Source: Escherichia phage HY02 | Length of the DNA: 64,000 nucleotides | Reading direction: 5' to 3' (one strand) | Sequence record: KM092515 | Part shown: positions 3,582-15,849 of the stretch, one piece after another | Layout of the letters: the number at the start of each line of letters is the position of its first letter | How positions within the stretch are numbered: the first letter of the stretch is position 1 | Translations under genes and position numbers: made by a program | Notes under the pieces: model-generated | Told to the model about the DNA's origin: nothing | The model's database searches: none | Seen by the model: the letters and a program-made list of their open reading frames with translations, nothing else

Positions 3582-3597
3582 TAAGTAATTTCTTAAA

Positions 3598-3621
3598 AGG
3601 CTGCTTCGGCGGCCTTTTTTA
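3598..3621 (+). terminator. intrinsic terminator
   Basis: GC hairpin GGCTGC-TTCG-GCGGCC followed by TTTTTT. Confidence 0.6.
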
Positions 3622-3622
3622 T

Positions 3623-3650
3623 TTGTATTTTGTGCAGAGTGCTGTATAAT
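3623..3650 (+). promoter_or_regulatory. sigma70-like promoter
   Basis: TTGTAT, 16-bp spacer, TATAAT upstream of the SLT gene. Confidence 0.4.
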
Positions 3651-3681: not shown

Positions 3682-4230
3682 ATGAAGAAATTGATTCTAG
3701 GTTTGTGCTTAATGTTTACAGCACACTTATCTTATGCAGTTGACTGCCCAGAGCTATCAATTAGCCAAAAAGTGAACATGTTAAAAGCTTACCAGTATGG
3801 TGAGAATAACATGGGTAAAGGTTGGGGTATCACTCTAGCAGCTATAGCCTTACAAGAGTCAGAGTTAGGTCTGAAGGTAGAAAATAAAAAGACCCATGAC
3901 TACGGTATCTTCCAGAATCACTTGAAGACTGTTGTAAAGCGTAACAAAATTAGTCCTAATGTTGCTAAAAAGAAACTCTTAAAAGATTTTGACTATGCCG
4001 CAAAAGAAACACATAAAGAGCTTGAGTTTTGGACGAAGGTACATGGTCACCCAAAGTCAAAGAAGACTTTACAAAAAGTTTTAGCATCATATAATGCTGG
4101 GTATTCGTACAGAATCCCTAAAGCTAAGAAATACTCTCAAGATGTCTATAACAATATGAAAGTTATTGCTCAATGTGAATTTGCAACAAACATTTCTAAG
4201 GTAAACCATGAAAAAATTAAGAAAGTCTGA
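3682..4230 (+). CDS. secreted lytic transglycosylase (SLT domain)
   Basis: N-terminal signal peptide MKKLILGLCLMFTAHLSYA; SLT-like motifs QESELG (catalytic Glu-Ser), DYGIFQ and YNAGYSY. Confidence 0.55.
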   Translation: MKKLILGLCLMFTAHLSYAVDCPELSISQKVNMLKAYQYGENNMGKGWGITLAAIALQESELGLKVENKKTHDYGIFQNHLKTVVKRNKISPNVAKKKLLKDFDYAAKETHKELEFWTKVHGHPKSKKTLQKVLASYNAGYSYRIPKAKKYSQDVYNNMKVIAQCEFATNISKVNHEKIKKV

Positions 4231-7236: not shown

Positions 7237-8022
7237 ATGGGTATTGTAAAAATCATCAATGGTGATATCTTTGCTGCATTTGATAAAGGTAAGTTTGACA
7301 TCATTGGTCATGGTTGTAACTGCATGAACCTAATGGGTGCAGGTATCGCTGACAAGATTTCTAAACTTTACCCAAAAGCATATGAGACCGATACAGAAGT
7401 TTATCTCTATGCAGGTGGTATAGGCCACAAACCCTGTGAGAATTTACTAGGTAATTTCTCTGTAGCACGTTTAAAACAAGGTCGTATAGCTAACCTTTAC
7501 ACTCAGCTTAAGACTGGTAAAGATGCCCGATACAGTGCTTTAGAGTCATCTTTGAAACAGCTTAACAGATACTGTGAAGTTAACCAGTTGAAGAAGGTTG
7601 GTCTACCTATGATTGGTGCAGGTATCGGTGGACTTGACCCTCAAGCTGTCACAGTTATCATCAATCAGGTGATGAAGAGTGTAGATGTTTATCTGTATGT
7701 CTATGAAGGCGAGATGTACCACAAGTTACGCTCAGGTTGGAAGAACTACTGTGAACCAGAATACTTTGCAGGTGTAGCAGTGTTCACGGATAACGCAGTT
7801 ACCCTCTTCAGACGAAGAAAAGGTAAGATACATCAAAGTAACCCTCCGGTTGAAAAGATGTCTCTAGGTAATGCTCTAGTTACCCACCTGTCGAAGAGCA
7901 ATCACAGAATGGCTGTGACATTTGGTAGTGATGCAGAAGCTTATATCTATGCAAGAACTGATGAGGATATCGAGGCAATCTTCTCTTCACCAGAAGTTAC
8001 CTTCTTAGACGCAAAGAACTAA
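7237..8022 (+). CDS. macro-domain (ADP-ribose binding/processing) protein
   Basis: N-terminal GDIF...DIIGHGCNCMNLMGAGIADKI and GLPMIGAGIGG loops resemble macro-domain glycine-rich motifs; C-terminal about 110 aa of unknown fold. Confidence 0.55.
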   Translation: MGIVKIINGDIFAAFDKGKFDIIGHGCNCMNLMGAGIADKISKLYPKAYETDTEVYLYAGGIGHKPCENLLGNFSVARLKQGRIANLYTQLKTGKDARYSALESSLKQLNRYCEVNQLKKVGLPMIGAGIGGLDPQAVTVIINQVMKSVDVYLYVYEGEMYHKLRSGWKNYCEPEYFAGVAVFTDNAVTLFRRRKGKIHQSNPPVEKMSLGNALVTHLSKSNHRMAVTFGSDAEAYIYARTDEDIEAIFSSPEVTFLDAKN

Positions 8023-8087
8023 GAAACTCTGTAGAATATTCACAATAGACTAAGCCTTTCTTATCTGGTAAATTTTTCAGGTAAGGG

Positions 8088-8277
8088 GGGCTTTTTCATT
8101 TCAGGATTGTGCAGGTATATTTCTATAGAGAAATCTGTAGAGAAAATTTTGAACTCCAAAGAGAAAATTCATTTTCAAACTGTGCAGGTAATCTCCAAAG
8201 GGCTTTTTCATTTTCAAAACGTGCAGACCCCGCTCAGGTCGGGCAAGAAAAATCATTTTAGAATCGTGCAGGTAGGT
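8088..8277. repeat. four direct copies of a roughly 22-bp motif TCATTTTCAAANNGTGCAGGTA
   Basis: GTGCAGGTA/GTGCAGACC at 8109, 8182, 8221 and 8266, each preceded by TTTTCATTTT. Confidence 0.6.
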
Positions 8278-8298
8278 TTTTATAGAGAGCCAGACCAA

Positions 8299-8329
8299 CC
8301 CCTCTCCCCCTCTTACTCCCCCTCTCCCC
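8299..8329 (-). repeat. C-rich tract; G-quadruplex-prone on the minus strand
   Basis: CCCCTCTCCCCCTCTTACTCCCCCTCTCCCC gives four G-runs of 4 or more on the complementary strand. Confidence 0.5.
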
Positions 8330-8451
8330 AAAAGTCAAGAGAAAAATTTGTAGCGGATTGAAAAATAATTCTTGATTTGTGTTCTGTTTTGTGGTAGTCG
8401 TGTGCGCCCGTTTCATTACAGTTTCGCCAAAGATATTTTTAAAATTTTTCT

Positions 8452-8480
8452 TGACTCTTTGAACGGGGTTATCTAGTATT
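8452..8480 (+). promoter_or_regulatory. sigma70-like promoter for the small-gene array
   Basis: TTGACT, 17-bp spacer, TAGTAT, immediately before the conserved leader. Confidence 0.4.
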
Positions 8481-8485
8481 TGCAT

Positions 8486-8542
8486 CAACGGGGAGGGAAT
8501 GACCTTCCCCACTAAATAAAGTCCTAAACTGGAGATTCAAAA
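8486..8542 (+). promoter_or_regulatory. conserved 5' leader (type A): stem-loop GGGGAGG-N8-CCTTCCCC, ACTAAATAAAGTCCTAAACTGGAGATTCAAAA, then ATG
   Basis: near-identical copies before ORFs at 8543, 10328, 11198, 12419, 12981, 13578 and 13907. Confidence 0.6.
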
Positions 8543-8923
8543 ATGAAATATCGTGCGCCTAAATTCATCAACAAAGACAACTTTCGTAGCGTACTGGAGA
8601 AGTCACTTGATGAAAATTTCAAAGGTAATGTGATTGTTGTTCACTCGTTCAATTTTAAGTATGATATCAACGGGAATAAAATTAACCATTACACGGCAAC
8701 CATGTTAGATGGTACTCTTTCAAGTGAAAAAACAATTCTACATGCACTTGCTGGGCGTGGTAAAAACCTGATAAGCTGCAATAAGAGACGTTATCAAGGT
8801 GGCGCATATGGTTATGATGATGCTGTTTACCATCTTGAAAATATGGGCTATTCAGTGGAGAAAGCTGGAGCGTCTCAAATAATTGGTAGTGATGGTTATG
8901 TGACAATATTCAAAATTAACTGA
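8543..8923 (+). CDS. hypothetical small early protein
   Basis: ORF preceded by conserved leader with GGAG RBS. Confidence 0.65.
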   Translation: MKYRAPKFINKDNFRSVLEKSLDENFKGNVIVVHSFNFKYDINGNKINHYTATMLDGTLSSEKTILHALAGRGKNLISCNKRRYQGGAYGYDDAVYHLENMGYSVEKAGASQIIGSDGYVTIFKIN

Positions 8924-10641: not shown

Positions 10642-10685
10642 AGATAAAGAGCTTTACCACTAAATCCTAAATTGGAGATTCTAAA

Positions 10686-11090
10686 ATGACTATTAATAAT
10701 CGTGAGTTATCAATCTTAAAAGCACGTTTGACTGTCAACCGGATTAATGTTATTACATCATCAGCACCTGATGAGACATTGCACAATATTATCGGGAAGA
10801 TTCAAAGTGTTATCTTAGACGTTGAAAGTGTAAAAAACTCATTGGCTGACGTTGCAGCAGGTATCACGCTAGATGGTGCACAATATGAAATGGCAGACAT
10901 GTTAGGCAAATCAAAGGTAATGAATAAAGAGTTAGATTTGAAAATGTTTAGATTTGCTGTTAAAGTGTGGCTATCTGTCGAGTATGATGCTAATTTTGCA
11001 ATCGCTGATTTCTTTGCCACTTGGTTGCAACGTAATTTGGCAAATCATGATTTTCGTGATATCTGTGATGCAATTTATGCAGAACTCTGA
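10686..11090 (+). CDS. hypothetical small early protein
   Basis: preceded by CCTAAATTGGAGATTCTAAAATG. Confidence 0.6.
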   Translation: MTINNRELSILKARLTVNRINVITSSAPDETLHNIIGKIQSVILDVESVKNSLADVAAGITLDGAQYEMADMLGKSKVMNKELDLKMFRFAVKVWLSVEYDANFAIADFFATWLQRNLANHDFRDICDAIYAEL

Positions 11091-14219: not shown

Positions 14220-15849
14220 GTCTATCCAATCCTTATACAATACCTTTCCTCACCTTTTCAGAATCTTATCAGACCTTAAAAGCAATAACTCTATAGTCTA
14301 CTCTATAGCCTTTTATCAAATCAACTTAAATATAAGCCAATAACCCCAGAAAGGGGATGGCCCATTTAAACGCTCTATAAAGCGCTATAACAGCCTTATC
14401 AACCTAACTTAAGGGATTGCATTAACTCACCCTTAAAAGCTCTTTACAGGGCTTTATAGAGGCTTAAAAGAATCTTATAAGGGTATAAGCTAATAGGTTG
14501 GCTAGTATCTTGTGAATAACTAAACAATCCCCTTGATAGTCACTAAAAAGTATGTTATAGGGGGCTATAAAGTTACTTCAAAGTTACGTGATAGATAGCT
14601 TAAAAGTTACGTAAATGCTAGCCCCCTTAACATTTTCTTAACAATTTCTTAACAATCCCCTACATAGTTATGCTTGTTAGAGACTTGTTAGCCCCTTGTT
14701 AAATCTCTGTTACAACCACGTAAAAGCCTTGTAAGAACCTTTGGCATAGCCTTAAAAGCCCCTGTAAAGCCCTATAAAGAGCTATCCATACAGTTGAGGG
14801 GTAAATACTAGGAAGAGGCTTAAAAGAACTTATAAGGGGCTATAGAGAGCTTTTAAGAGGCATGTTTAAGGAATCACTAAGAAATAAAGGGAACTATAAG
14901 AAAAGAGATAGTGACCATGTTAATAGCTTGTTAAAAAGATTAAACACTTGTTAGAAACTTGTTAATTATCTTAACAAAAATAACTCTTTAAAATTAACTT
15001 GTTAGCTCTTGTTAGTCATCTGTTAAGATTCTGTAAAGCCTATTCAGCACTTGTTAGAAAACTGTTACAGCCTTGTTAGTTCTGTTAAGAACCTGTTAAT
15101 ACCTTTGAAGAGTTGTTAAGAAGATGTGAGAACTGTTAAGAGATTGTTAAGGATATTTTAAAATTTTGCAAAGTACTTGTAAGGGAGCTGTTAAGGGCTA
15201 CCAAGCAGATATACATCTTCTACAGATATTTTTCAGTTCCTTCAAAGACCCTAAAAAATGACTTGATAGCCCTATTTTATAAAAATTTTAAAATTCTGAA
15301 TAATTACCTAGACAGTCTTTTAAAAATACAGGCATAAACAGGCTTATAAGATACCTTGTTAGTACCGTGTTAGACCTTGTGGGGTAAGGTCTGCAAAGAT
15401 ATTCCTGTTAAGTTTGTTAAAACAGTCTATATAGAGGCTTAGTATCCCCTAGTGAACACCTATAGAGGGTAACATAGCTAACCTAATGGGTTACTGTTAA
15501 GTAACACAGATAACCTAGAGATTAAGAGGTGTATAGGAGCTTCTAAGATGGTGTAGAGAGATGGTTAAGGTGATTGTATAGGTTGTTAAGAAGGCTTGTT
15601 AGAGGGCTTGTTAGAAGGGCTATACAGAGGGGCTATTAAGACCACTAGATAGATACTAAGATACTATATAGTACTATATAACTATATATAGAGAGTAAGC
15701 TTAAGAAGGTTGTTAAGAAGGGTAGATATTTTATTCACATATGATGGTGACCCAGAGGTTGGGACAACCGATAAAATTTTATAAAAAATATAAATTTCGT
15801 AAATTTTACTCAATAAAAAGCCCCCAATTAAGGAGGCTCTTAAGATATT
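14220..15849. repeat. ORF-free region with dense short direct repeats (CTTGTTAG / CTGTTAAG family) and an AT-rich CTATATA tract; candidate origin or regulatory hub
   Basis: no ORF over 1.6 kb; more than 25 copies of (C/G)TTGTTA(G/A) and CTGTTAAG, densest at 14930-15200; CTATATA three times at 15661-15695; recurring CTTAAAAG/CTTATAAG/CTATAAAG words at 14340-14870. Confidence 0.6.

What the first reader, a model, noticed from the sequence alone, without database searches (positions are those of the whole stretch)
8088..8277. Four direct repeats of a 22-bp motif ending in GTGCAGGTA
Copies at about 8093-8117, 8165-8190, 8202-8229 and 8250-8274 share TTTTCATTTT-CAAA-NN-GTGCAGG(T/A)(A/C)C and lie 200-450 bp upstream of the early gene array. 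They do not resemble sigma70 promoters. They could be operators for a phage or host regulator, or promoters for an alternative holoenzyme.
Basis: seen in the sequence. Interest (0 to 1): 0.5.

Follow-up and report, generated by a model that had tools for sequence, protein, structure and literature searches.

The report
Conserved repeat array in Felix O1-like phages
Four same-direction copies of a two-part 22-bp DNA motif lie in a non-coding gap of a Felix O1-type phage genome and are kept almost unchanged in four phage lineages, so they are most likely docking sites for an unidentified DNA-binding protein at the border of the early-gene block.

Summary
Four direct copies (8096-8117, 8169-8190, 8208-8229, 8253-8274) share TCATTTy-N6-GTGCAG(GTA); none is expected by chance.

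The window is a Felixounavirus (Felix O1/wV8-like). The array lies in a 520-bp non-coding spacer, after the terminator of a macro-domain gene and before the first early sigma70 promoter. It is about 6.9 kb (about 8%) from the inferred right genome end.

The same array, with 3-5 copies, holds this position in Felixounavirus, Mooglevirus, Kolesnikvirus and a fourth lineage whose proteins are only 30-44% identical. The half-sites TCATTT and GTGCA are essentially invariant. Linkers, spacing (36-45 bp) and reading frames are not.

It is not coding, not a structured RNA, not the terminal repeat, and not a dispersed promoter class. It does not match DnaA, IHF or MarA sites in this phage.

One further related site straddles the -35/spacer of a conserved promoter downstream of rIIB, 4.5 kb upstream.

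Best reading (about 40%): operator-like recognition sites for an unidentified, highly conserved DNA-binding protein acting at the middle/early boundary. Rivals are origin iterons, tandem factor-dependent promoters and an RNA-level motif. I found no annotation or description of it in the records and papers checked, and the function remains untested.

The parts
8096..8117 (+). Repeat copy 1 (TCATTTC-AGGATT-GTGCAGGTA). Its T-tract is the tail of the preceding terminator. It is also a weak sigma70-like site, TTTTCA-17-TATATT at 8093-8121.
8169..8190 (+). Repeat copy 2 (TCATTTT-CAAACT-GTGCAGGTA), preceded by CTCCAAAGAGAAAAT
8208..8229 (+). Repeat copy 3 (TCATTTT-CAAAAC-GTGCAGACC), preceded by CTCCAAAGGGCTTTT. 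The bases after GTGCAG vary between relatives.
8253..8274 (+). Repeat copy 4 (TCATTTT-AGAATC-GTGCAGGTA). The linker before it, GGTCGGGCAAGAAAAA, is homologous to a linker in the Erwinia-phage (Kolesnikvirus) array.
8052..8093 (+). Intrinsic terminator of the upstream operon (17-pair imperfect hairpin plus T-run), directly abutting copy 1
   Evidence: annotated as a terminator in wV8, ASO1A and XTG1
3619..3650 (+). Single related site after the rIIB terminator: TTATTTG-N6-GTGCAG-N7-TATAAT. The motif straddles the poor -35 and the spacer of a promoter with a perfect -10, in front of gene 3 (ATG 3682). Conserved in Felixounavirus and Mooglevirus.
8296..8329 (+). C-rich, G-poor tract just after the array (G-quadruplex-type G-runs on the minus strand). 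Present in part of Felixounavirus, in Mooglevirus and, shorter, in Kolesnikvirus. Replaced in many Felixounavirus genomes.
8451..8479 (+). First early sigma70-type promoter, TTGACT-17-TAGTAT, with an A/T-rich upstream tract. It drives the first gene of the small early-gene array (8543-8923).
7237..8022 (+). Macro-domain (ADP-ribose-binding / phosphatase) gene. It is the upstream neighbour of the array in most genomes of all four lineages; a three-copy variant (L011/L031) has a different upstream sequence.
14621..15202 (.). Context only: homologue of the 581-bp direct terminal repeat annotated in phage Pr103Blw. It places the array about 6.9 kb from the inferred right genome end.

Best explanation
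The four repeats are a conserved cis-acting array of recognition sites for a sequence-specific DNA-binding protein, of the operator or iteron type.

Each site is asymmetric and two-part. The half-sites TCATTT and GTGCA have centres about 12.5 bp apart. This fits one protein with two reading heads, or a head-to-tail pair, contacting two successive major grooves on one face of the DNA.

The four sites all point the same way. They fill the 180 bp between the terminator that closes the gene-3-to-macro-domain operon and the first promoter of the early-gene block.

A fifth, related site covers about -38 to -20 of the promoter that opens that same operon, 4.5 kb upstream. Occupancy there would either occlude the -35 contact or substitute for it.

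I therefore read the array as an operator cluster that helps set or switch transcription at the middle/early boundary, for example as a nucleoprotein roadblock or insulator, or as a high-avidity loading site for the factor that also acts at the upstream promoter.

Shown: the sites, their two-part conservation, their fixed genomic position, the absence of coding or RNA-structure signal, and the fifth site on a promoter.

Inferred: that a protein binds, which protein it is, and the sign of the regulation. The half-sites stay unchanged where phage proteins have drifted to 30-44% identity. This suggests a host protein or a very conserved core phage protein.
For: - The half-sites TCATTT and GTGCA are essentially invariant in 83 distinct units from three genera. 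The six bases between them, the linkers and the flanks vary.
- The motif has no dyad symmetry (read from the sequence).
- The array keeps the same position (macro-domain gene, terminator, array, C-rich tract, early promoter) in Felixounavirus, Mooglevirus and Kolesnikvirus. It does so too in a fourth lineage (L046) whose neighbouring proteins are 30-44% identical to those of the window.
- Linker homology shows descent from one ancestral array rather than independent expansions.
- Unit spacing varies (73/39/45, 75/41/45, 37/37/39, about 36-38 bp) while the core is fixed, as expected for independently read sites.
- The motif is confined to the cluster. The one other related site in the 64-kb window and the closest relative's remaining 23 kb sits on a conserved promoter with a perfect -10 and a poor -35. 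There GTGCAG is invariant inside the spacer while its neighbouring bases vary.
- No reading frame is free of stop codons across relatives.
- RNA folding is no better than shuffled sequence, z = 0.09 and 0.30, and there is no Rfam match.
Against: - No binding protein is identified. The early-array proteins tested have no Pfam domain.
- The only annotated regulator in Felix O1 is an HTH_3 protein. Proteins of that type usually read palindromes, not asymmetric sites.
- The sites lie 180-360 bp upstream of the nearest strong promoter, too far for simple steric repression. The other early promoters carry no such site.
- Non-integral helical spacing argues against a cooperative, face-aligned complex.
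- The geometry at the upstream promoter (GTGCAG 7 nt before the -10) differs from the TAnnnT that follows GTGCAGG by 1 nt in the array units. One mechanism may therefore not cover both.
- No matching arrays exist in bacterial genomes that would point to a host regulon.
Confidence: 0.4

Rival explanations
1. Replication origin. The units are iterons for an initiator (phage or host). Initiation would be assisted by the flanking A/T-rich stretches as an unwinding region, by the C-rich/G-rich tract (stable R-loop or G-quadruplex) and by transcription from nearby promoters.
For: - There are 3-5 direct asymmetric units of about 20 bp in a non-coding region, next to A/T-rich DNA (8118-8168 and 8331-8395) and a polypyrimidine tract.
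- In the L046 lineage the array is followed by a very A/T-rich stretch with repeated TTTTTTAACA.
- In Kolesnikvirus every unit carries a one-mismatch DnaA box, CTATGCACA or TTATGCACG.
- The phage helicase-primase is T7 gp4-like. By my knowledge of T7, such enzymes work at promoter-plus-A/T-rich origins.
Against: - No initiator gene is known or adjacent, and the flanking genes vary.
- Unit spacing of 36-45 bp is irregular, unlike the roughly 22-bp phased iterons of lambda, P1 or R6K.
- In this window the units are three mismatches from a DnaA box. One-mismatch boxes are common anyway, 154 in 64 kb.
- GC skew shows nothing here beyond transcription direction.
- A fifth site on a promoter 4.5 kb away is not expected for an origin.
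Confidence: 0.2
2. Tandem promoters, comparable to the three tandem early promoters A1-A3 of T7. They would be either weak sigma70 promoters or promoters that need a phage factor reading TCATTT/GTGCA in place of a -35. They would produce short middle-time transcripts across the spacer.
For: - Copy 1 scores as TTTTCA-17-TATATT.
- Its -10-like hexamer keeps a TnnAnT-like form in many relatives: TATTAT, TATAGT, TAGAGT, TGTAAT.
- TAnnnT follows GTGCAGG in copies 1, 2 and 4.
- The related upstream site is part of a real-looking promoter.
- RT-PCR of Felix O1 ORF14, which overlaps copies 2-4, was positive and peaked at 25 min. ORFs 3, 4, 6 and 10 behind the upstream promoter peaked then too, while early-array ORFs 16 and 20-22 peaked at 5 min.
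Against: - The invariant bases would lie in the spacer and the variable ones at -35 and -7.
- A at position 2 or T at position 6 of the -10 is not conserved in copies 2-4, nor in Kolesnikvirus.
- Copy 3 has no -10 at all.
- A factor-dependent promoter class should be dispersed, but the motif is not.
- The register relative to the -10 differs by 6 bp between the array and the upstream promoter.
- That RT-PCR used both primers in one tube, so it is not strand-specific and could reflect terminator read-through.
Confidence: 0.15
3. RNA-level element. The region would be transcribed and the repeated linear motif would act in RNA, as a sponge for an RNA-binding protein or as an antisense seed against the ribosome-binding regions of early mRNAs.
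For: - The region is transcribed in Felix O1.
- TCATTTT is the reverse complement of the AAAATGA start context of the early genes.
- Copy 4 (TCATTTTAGAATC) is perfectly complementary over 13 nt to the start region of the gene at 10686.
- Irregular spacing is irrelevant for RNA.
Against: - There is no thermodynamic or conserved structure.
- By my estimate, a 13-nt match in A/T-rich DNA is within chance for a 64-kb window.
- The complementarity does not hold for copies 1-3.
- The CTCC anti-Shine-Dalgarno-like linker is absent in Kolesnikvirus.
- The invariant GTGCA has no partner in the early leaders.
Confidence: 0.08
4. No sequence-specific function. The units would be relics of duplicated terminator-tail and half-promoter cassettes, kept as homology for module shuffling at the edge of a variable gene block.
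For: - Copies 1 and 3, and the upstream site, begin with a terminator-like GGGCTTTTT tail.
- The genes on either side of the spacer are exchanged between relatives.
- The early array is full of repeated promoter/terminator cassettes.
Against: Neutral relics would not keep two short blocks invariant while the bases between them vary, across lineages with 30-44% protein identity and through independent changes in spacing.
Confidence: 0.05
5. A small protein gene, as annotated over this stretch in some records: Felix O1 ORF14, wV8 gp013 on the plus strand; Michonne gp098, Pr103Blw_00144 on the minus strand.
For: Short ORFs are open in the window on both strands. Several depositors annotated one.
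Against: - Annotators disagree on strand and frame.
- Indels of 2 and 4 nt separate relatives.
- In nearly every relative, every one of the six frames has at least one stop within the array.
- There is no ATG with a ribosome-binding site on the plus strand.
Confidence: 0.02

Closest known systems
Iterons of phage and plasmid origins (lambda ori, P1 oriR, R6K, pSC101)
   Same: Several direct, asymmetric units of about 20 bp lie in a non-coding region beside A/T-rich DNA. In iterons each unit is read by one protein with two DNA-reading domains.
   Different: Spacing is 36-45 bp and irregular rather than about 22 bp. No initiator gene is nearby and none is known. One related site sits on a promoter 4.5 kb away. 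There is no sequence similarity to any iteron I know.
T5 injection-stop-signal repeat region (Davison, bioRxiv 10.1101/866236)
   Same: Both are non-coding repeat clusters that are better conserved than the neighbouring small genes. Both lie about 8% of the genome from a terminally repeated end and bound a block of very early genes. The Kolesnikvirus version has DnaA-box-like units.
   Different: T5's region is 1.2 kb of nested inverted repeats and palindromes with paired consensus DnaA boxes. This one is a simple direct array with no DnaA box in this phage. Two-step DNA entry has never been reported for Felix O1-like phages. Which end enters first is unknown.
Bipartite activator sites that straddle a -35, such as lambda CII TTGC-N6-TTGC (from my knowledge of lambda)
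   Same: Two short conserved blocks are separated by 6-7 variable bases. At the promoter downstream of rIIB they flank a poor -35 upstream of a good -10.
   Different: The CII half-sites are identical direct repeats, whereas here the halves differ. The four array units have no properly placed -10. No CII-like gene is known in these lytic phages.
T7 tandem early promoters A1, A2, A3
   Same: Three to four closely spaced, same-direction elements lie just upstream of the early gene block of a phage with terminal repeats.
   Different: The T7 elements are near-consensus sigma70 promoters. Here the conserved bases are not the sigma70 contact positions.
Repeated promoter/terminator cassettes of early regions (T4-type 'PeSL' cassettes; the 41-nt promoter repeats of PAK_P1-like phages, PMC4309531)
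   Same: They occupy the same genomic neighbourhood. The early array to the right of this element is built from such cassettes (wV8 DR_1 to DR_9).
   Different: Those cassettes contain consensus TTGACA-17-TAnAAT promoters and are scattered between genes. The four units here lack that and are clustered with no genes between them.

Membership tests
sigma70 promoters | -35 TTGACA-like and -10 TATAAT-like hexamers 16-18 bp apart, with conservation concentrated on those hexamers | tested here: not met
   Only copy 1 passes a lenient scan, 9 of 12. Across 83 units the invariant positions fall in the would-be spacer, while the -35 and the T at -7 vary.
Phage-specific or alternative-sigma promoter class | The same motif is found upstream of many genes of one temporal class across the genome | tested here: not met
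   With up to 1 mismatch the motif occurs only in the array. At 2 mismatches the count equals the shuffle background. One related site lies at 3619.
Replication-origin iterons | Direct repeats bound by an initiator, with an adjacent A/T-rich unwinding region | tested here: inconclusive
   Direct repeats and A/T-rich flanks are present. Spacing is irregular, no initiator is identified, and skew is uninformative.
Replication-origin iterons | Replication starts here | not testable with these tools
   This needs marker-frequency analysis or 2D-gel mapping in infected cells.
DnaA boxes / T5 iss-type region | TT(A/T)TNCACA boxes, consensus or one mismatch, in a conserved arrangement | tested here: not met
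   The window units read ACCTGCACA or ACCTGCACG on the minus strand, three mismatches. No box with up to 1 mismatch overlaps the units. The Kolesnikvirus units are one mismatch away.
MarA/SoxS/Rob marbox | AYNGCACNNWNNRYYAAAYN, asymmetric 20-mer | tested here: not met
   The best unit score is 9 of 14 specified positions. That score is reached by about 3% of all window positions. The control mar site scores 13 of 14.
Direct terminal repeat / packaging site | Coincides with the physical genome ends | tested here: not met
   The terminal repeat annotated in Pr103Blw maps to window 14621-15202, 6.3 kb downstream of the array. Many relatives' records end 6-7.5 kb after the array.
Protein-coding gene (Felix O1 ORF14 / wV8 gp013) | A reading frame preserved among relatives | tested here: not met
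   Frame-breaking indels and stop codons in nearly every frame across relatives.
Structured non-coding RNA | Folding energy below shuffled sequence, or a match to a known RNA family | tested here: not met
   z = 0.09 on the plus strand and 0.30 on the minus strand. No Rfam hit near any gathering score.
Operator array for a DNA-binding regulator | Specific protein binding to the sites, with an effect on transcription | not testable with these tools
   Only indirect support: two-part conservation, clustering, and one site overlapping a promoter.

The most novel reading that the evidence does not exclude
The array is a cis-acting DNA-entry checkpoint, comparable to the injection stop signal of T5. 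It lies about 8% of the genome from the inferred right end and marks the inner edge of the block of small early genes. Under this reading only that terminal segment would enter first, held by a conserved host protein bound to the units, until early proteins release the rest. That would extend two-step genome delivery from T5-like siphoviruses to a contractile-tailed phage family.
Probability: 0.06. Interest if true: 0.85.

Novelty: new member of a known kind. Interest (0 to 1): 0.45.

Why it matters
Felix O1 and its relatives are long-used Salmonella and E. coli typing and biocontrol phages, yet the Felix O1 genome paper states that how their transcription is timed is not known. It found no phage RNA polymerase or polymerase-modifying proteins.

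This array is one of the few non-coding elements conserved across the whole subfamily. It sits exactly at the junction between a middle-time operon and the early host-takeover block. In the records checked it is either unannotated or labelled as a hypothetical gene.

Finding what binds it would give a handle on the temporal switch, on the replication origin, or on DNA entry. It would also tell genome engineers which part of this 'empty' spacer must not be disturbed.

Tried and rejected
1. Genome terminus or packaging site. I suspected the 520-bp spacer might be the roughly 600-bp terminal repeat reported for UAB_Phi87 and Pr103Blw. The annotated repeat maps 6.3 kb downstream. The UAB_Phi87 record merely carries a 542-bp assembly overlap inside the tRNA region.
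2. Protein coding: rejected.
3. Structured RNA or a known RNA family: rejected.
4. Dispersed promoter class: rejected.
5. Host sites.
   - DnaA box is not met in this phage.
   - IHF is absent from the units.
   - Marbox is not met.
   - By reading, sigma54, sigma32, sigmaE, sigma28, CRP, Fis, the RfaH ops element and the EcoKI site AAC-N6-GTGC do not fit.
6. The rrnB P1 UP-element resemblance of GAAAATTCATTTTCAAA led nowhere, because no -10 lies at the right distance.
7. Antisense pairing with early-gene start regions: only copy 4 pairs well, and the pairing is not conserved.
8. Arrays in bacterial genomes: only unrelated tandem repeats in non-enterobacterial genome assemblies from metagenomes. 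Metagenome hits are contigs carrying the same array, several of them 80-103 kb long like these phage genomes, or unrelated satellites.
9. Literature: I found no transcript-start data and no description of these repeats. The Bas63 knockout-library paper has no held supplement with scores for intergenic positions.
10. Early-array proteins have no Pfam domains that would nominate a binder.

Full report
**What is in the sequence**

The four copies are real. They are:
- 8096-8117, TCATTTCAGGATTGTGCAGGTA
- 8169-8190, TCATTTTCAAACTGTGCAGGTA
- 8208-8229, TCATTTTCAAAACGTGCAGACC
- 8253-8274, TCATTTTAGAATCGTGCAGGTA

All are on the plus strand. Each is preceded by G, one base, then a run of four or five T or A.

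Copies 1 and 4 share a longer 36-nt unit. Copies 2 and 3 share a 34-nt unit that begins CTCCAAAG.

The 22-mer with up to three mismatches occurs three times, against none in 100 shuffles. GTGCAGGTA occurs five times against 0.54 expected. The core TCATTTT-N6-GTGCA with at most one mismatch occurs only at these four places in the window and in the remaining 23 kb of the closest relative's genome.

**Where it is**

The window is a Felixounavirus, that is, a Felix O1/wV8-like myovirus. Its closest record is Shigella phage JK55, at 99.4% identity over this spacer.

The repeats lie in a 520-bp spacer (8023-8542) with this layout:
- To the left is a macro-domain gene (7237-8022; Pfam Macro).
- Its intrinsic terminator (8052-8093) has a T-run that forms the start of copy 1.
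- To the right come a C-rich tract (8296-8329) and a conserved A/T-rich stretch.
- Then comes a sigma70-type promoter, TTGACT-17-TAGTAT (8451-8479).
- Last is the first gene of an array of small genes. Each of these genes is preceded by repeated promoter/terminator cassettes (wV8 DR_1 to DR_9).

Physical ends are known for relatives. UAB_Phi87 has 608-bp direct terminal repeats, shown experimentally (PMC4837284). Pr103Blw has 581-bp repeats that are annotated in its record. That repeat maps to window 14621-15202.

So the array is not the terminus. It lies about 6.9 kb, roughly 8% of the genome, inside the inferred right end. The early-gene block fills the interval.

**Conservation**

The spacer matches 256 phage records, 229 of them over at least 80% of its length. 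In a 23-sequence alignment the units are almost unchanged, while positions just after GTGCAG, the linkers and the region 8277-8330 vary.

Mooglevirus phages (Michonne, KMM4, ESh22 and others) have four units spaced 75/41/45. Their macro protein is about 65% identical to the window's.

Kolesnikvirus (Erwinia) phages have four units spaced 37/37/39. These read TTTTTCATTTT-N6-GTGCATAG. They sit behind the macro gene and its terminator, and in front of a C-rich tract and a TTGACT-17-TATATT promoter. The macro protein there is only 29% identical.

A fourth lineage is an 88-kb metagenomic contig, L046. It has five units in two clusters behind its macro gene. Its neighbouring proteins are 30-44% identical to those of the window.

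The linker GGTC(G/T)GGCAAGAAAAATCATTTT is shared between Felixounavirus and Kolesnikvirus. The arrays therefore descend from one ancestor.

Some genomes have three units (L011, L031, L070). I saw none with fewer.

Across 83 distinct units, TCATTT and GTGCA are essentially invariant and the six bases between them are only purine- and A/T-biased. The units were collected with a pattern that allowed two mismatches in those blocks, so the invariance is slightly favoured by the method.

Scans of 2.9 million viral contigs, of metagenomes and of 185,579 bacterial and archaeal genomes were run for two adjacent units. They return this array only on contigs of this kind, many of them 80-103 kb long like these phage genomes. 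Everything else is unrelated tandem repeats.

**What it is not**

- Not a gene. Annotators placed ORFs on different strands and frames (Felix O1 ORF14, wV8 gp013, Michonne gp098, Pr103Blw_00144). Relatives differ by 2- and 4-nt indels. No frame is stop-free across relatives.
- Not a structured RNA. Folding energies equal those of shuffled sequence on both strands, and Rfam gives nothing.
- Not a general promoter class. The motif is not dispersed. The conserved bases would lie in the sigma70 spacer. Copy 1 alone is a lenient sigma70 match.
- Not DnaA, IHF or MarA/SoxS/Rob sites in this phage.

**A fifth, informative site**

The only other related sequence in the window is at 3619-3650, immediately after the rIIB terminator (3595-3618). 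It reads TTATTTG-N6-GTGCAG-N7-TATAAT and is followed by a ribosome-binding site and gene 3 (ATG 3682).

It is conserved in Felixounavirus and Mooglevirus. TTATTTG, GTGCAG and TATAAT are fixed, while the N6 and N7 stretches vary.

A perfect -10 with a poor -35, and an invariant block inside the spacer, is what one expects where a protein reads the DNA over the -35 and spacer. This promoter opens the operon that ends at the terminator abutting copy 1. The operon is thus bracketed by the motif.

In Felix O1 RT-PCR, ORFs 3, 4, 6 and 10 of this operon and ORF14 (the array region) peaked at 25 min. Early-array ORFs 16 and 20-22 peaked at 5 min, as did the macro gene ORF13. That assay used both primers in one tube, so it is not strand-specific.

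**Most likely mechanism**

I read the units as recognition sites for one sequence-specific DNA-binding protein. It would contact two unlike half-sites one helical turn apart.

The cluster of four, in one orientation, sits between a terminator and the first early promoter. The single site sits on the promoter of the same operon. Together these point to transcriptional control at the middle/early boundary, of the operator, roadblock or insulator type. I give this about 40%.

The half-sites persist where phage proteins have diverged to 30-44% identity. That step is inference.

**Rivals**

- Origin iterons, about 20%. Direct repeats, A/T-rich flanks, a tract prone to R-loops, and DnaA-like units in Kolesnikvirus favour this. 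There is no initiator, the spacing is irregular, and there is no DnaA match here.
- Tandem promoters dependent on a factor, about 15%.
- An RNA-level motif, about 8%.
- Neutral relics, about 5%.
- A small gene, about 2%.

**Comparison with known systems**

The element works most like iteron or operator arrays, but it shares no sequence or spacing with any that I know.

Its position and its conservation relative to neighbouring genes recall the T5 injection-stop region (Davison, bioRxiv 10.1101/866236). It lacks that region's nested inverted repeats and DnaA boxes. Two-step entry is unknown for these phages. I keep this as the most novel reading that is not excluded, at about 6%.

**Novelty and verdict**

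I found no annotation or description of these repeats:
- The wV8 record's repeat features do not include them.
- Other records leave the spacer empty or call a hypothetical gene in it.

It is a genuine, strongly constrained, subfamily-wide non-coding element of unknown function. That makes it of moderate interest: a good experimental target rather than a surprise in kind.

Noticed in passing
window 8296-8329 (minus strand): The C-rich tract reads GGGGAGAGGGGGAGTAAGAGGGGGAGAGGGG on the minus strand: four G-runs in a G-quadruplex-type pattern. On the plus strand it is a C-rich, G-poor stretch of the kind Rho loads on. It is present in some Felixounavirus genomes, in Mooglevirus and, shorter, in Kolesnikvirus. 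Many Felixounavirus genomes have an unrelated sequence in its place.
   Followed up: partly
window 8112-8147: Straight after copy 1 there are three tandem 12-bp units: CAGGTATATTTC, TATAGAGAAATC and TGTAGAGAAAAT. In wV8-type relatives they read more regularly as GTAGAG-N6. A related TATAGAGAG follows copy 4.
   Followed up: no
window 7337-7345 and 7616-7624: Two more exact GTGCAGGTA 9-mers lie inside the macro-domain gene. Both read GGT GCA GGT ATC (Gly-Ala-Gly-Ile) in glycine-rich segments, and neither has the TCATTT half. This is probably coincidence, but it accounts for two of the five hits to the 9-mer.
   Followed up: partly
window 8253-8265 versus 10673-10691: Copy 4 (TCATTTTAGAATC) is the exact reverse complement of 13 nt spanning the ribosome-binding spacer and ATG of the early gene at 10686. 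By my estimate this is within chance for A/T-rich DNA. It is not seen for the other copies.
   Followed up: partly
window 8483-8542 and at least five further places up to about 14 kb: The last 60 bp of the spacer (hairpin GGGGAGGGAATGACCTTCCCC plus ribosome-binding site) recur upstream of many early genes, together with promoter/terminator cassettes. These are the wV8 DR_1 to DR_9 features, resembling the shuffling cassettes of T4-type phages and the 41-nt promoter repeats of PAK_P1-like phages.
   Followed up: partly
window 14621-15202: Homologue of the 581-bp direct terminal repeat of Pr103Blw (94% identity). It lies in the gap where the rightward early genes and the leftward genes converge. 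Both genome ends therefore carry genes transcribed outward, towards the termini.
   Followed up: partly
JN225449.1 (L002 1-542 and L003 2459-3000): The UAB_Phi87 GenBank record begins and ends with the same roughly 542 bp inside the tRNA cluster. This looks like a circular-assembly overlap, not the 608-bp terminal repeat its paper reports. The record length minus this overlap plus 608 equals the published 87,669 bp.
   Followed up: partly
L043 / L089 (10.2-kb metagenomic contig), about 3890-3990 on the reverse strand: An unrelated small phage-like contig has two 50-nt tandem units containing ATCATTTTAACATAGTGCAG, upstream of a TTGTCA...TATAAT promoter and a terminase operon. This is probably a chance match carried by a tandem duplication.
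   Followed up: no
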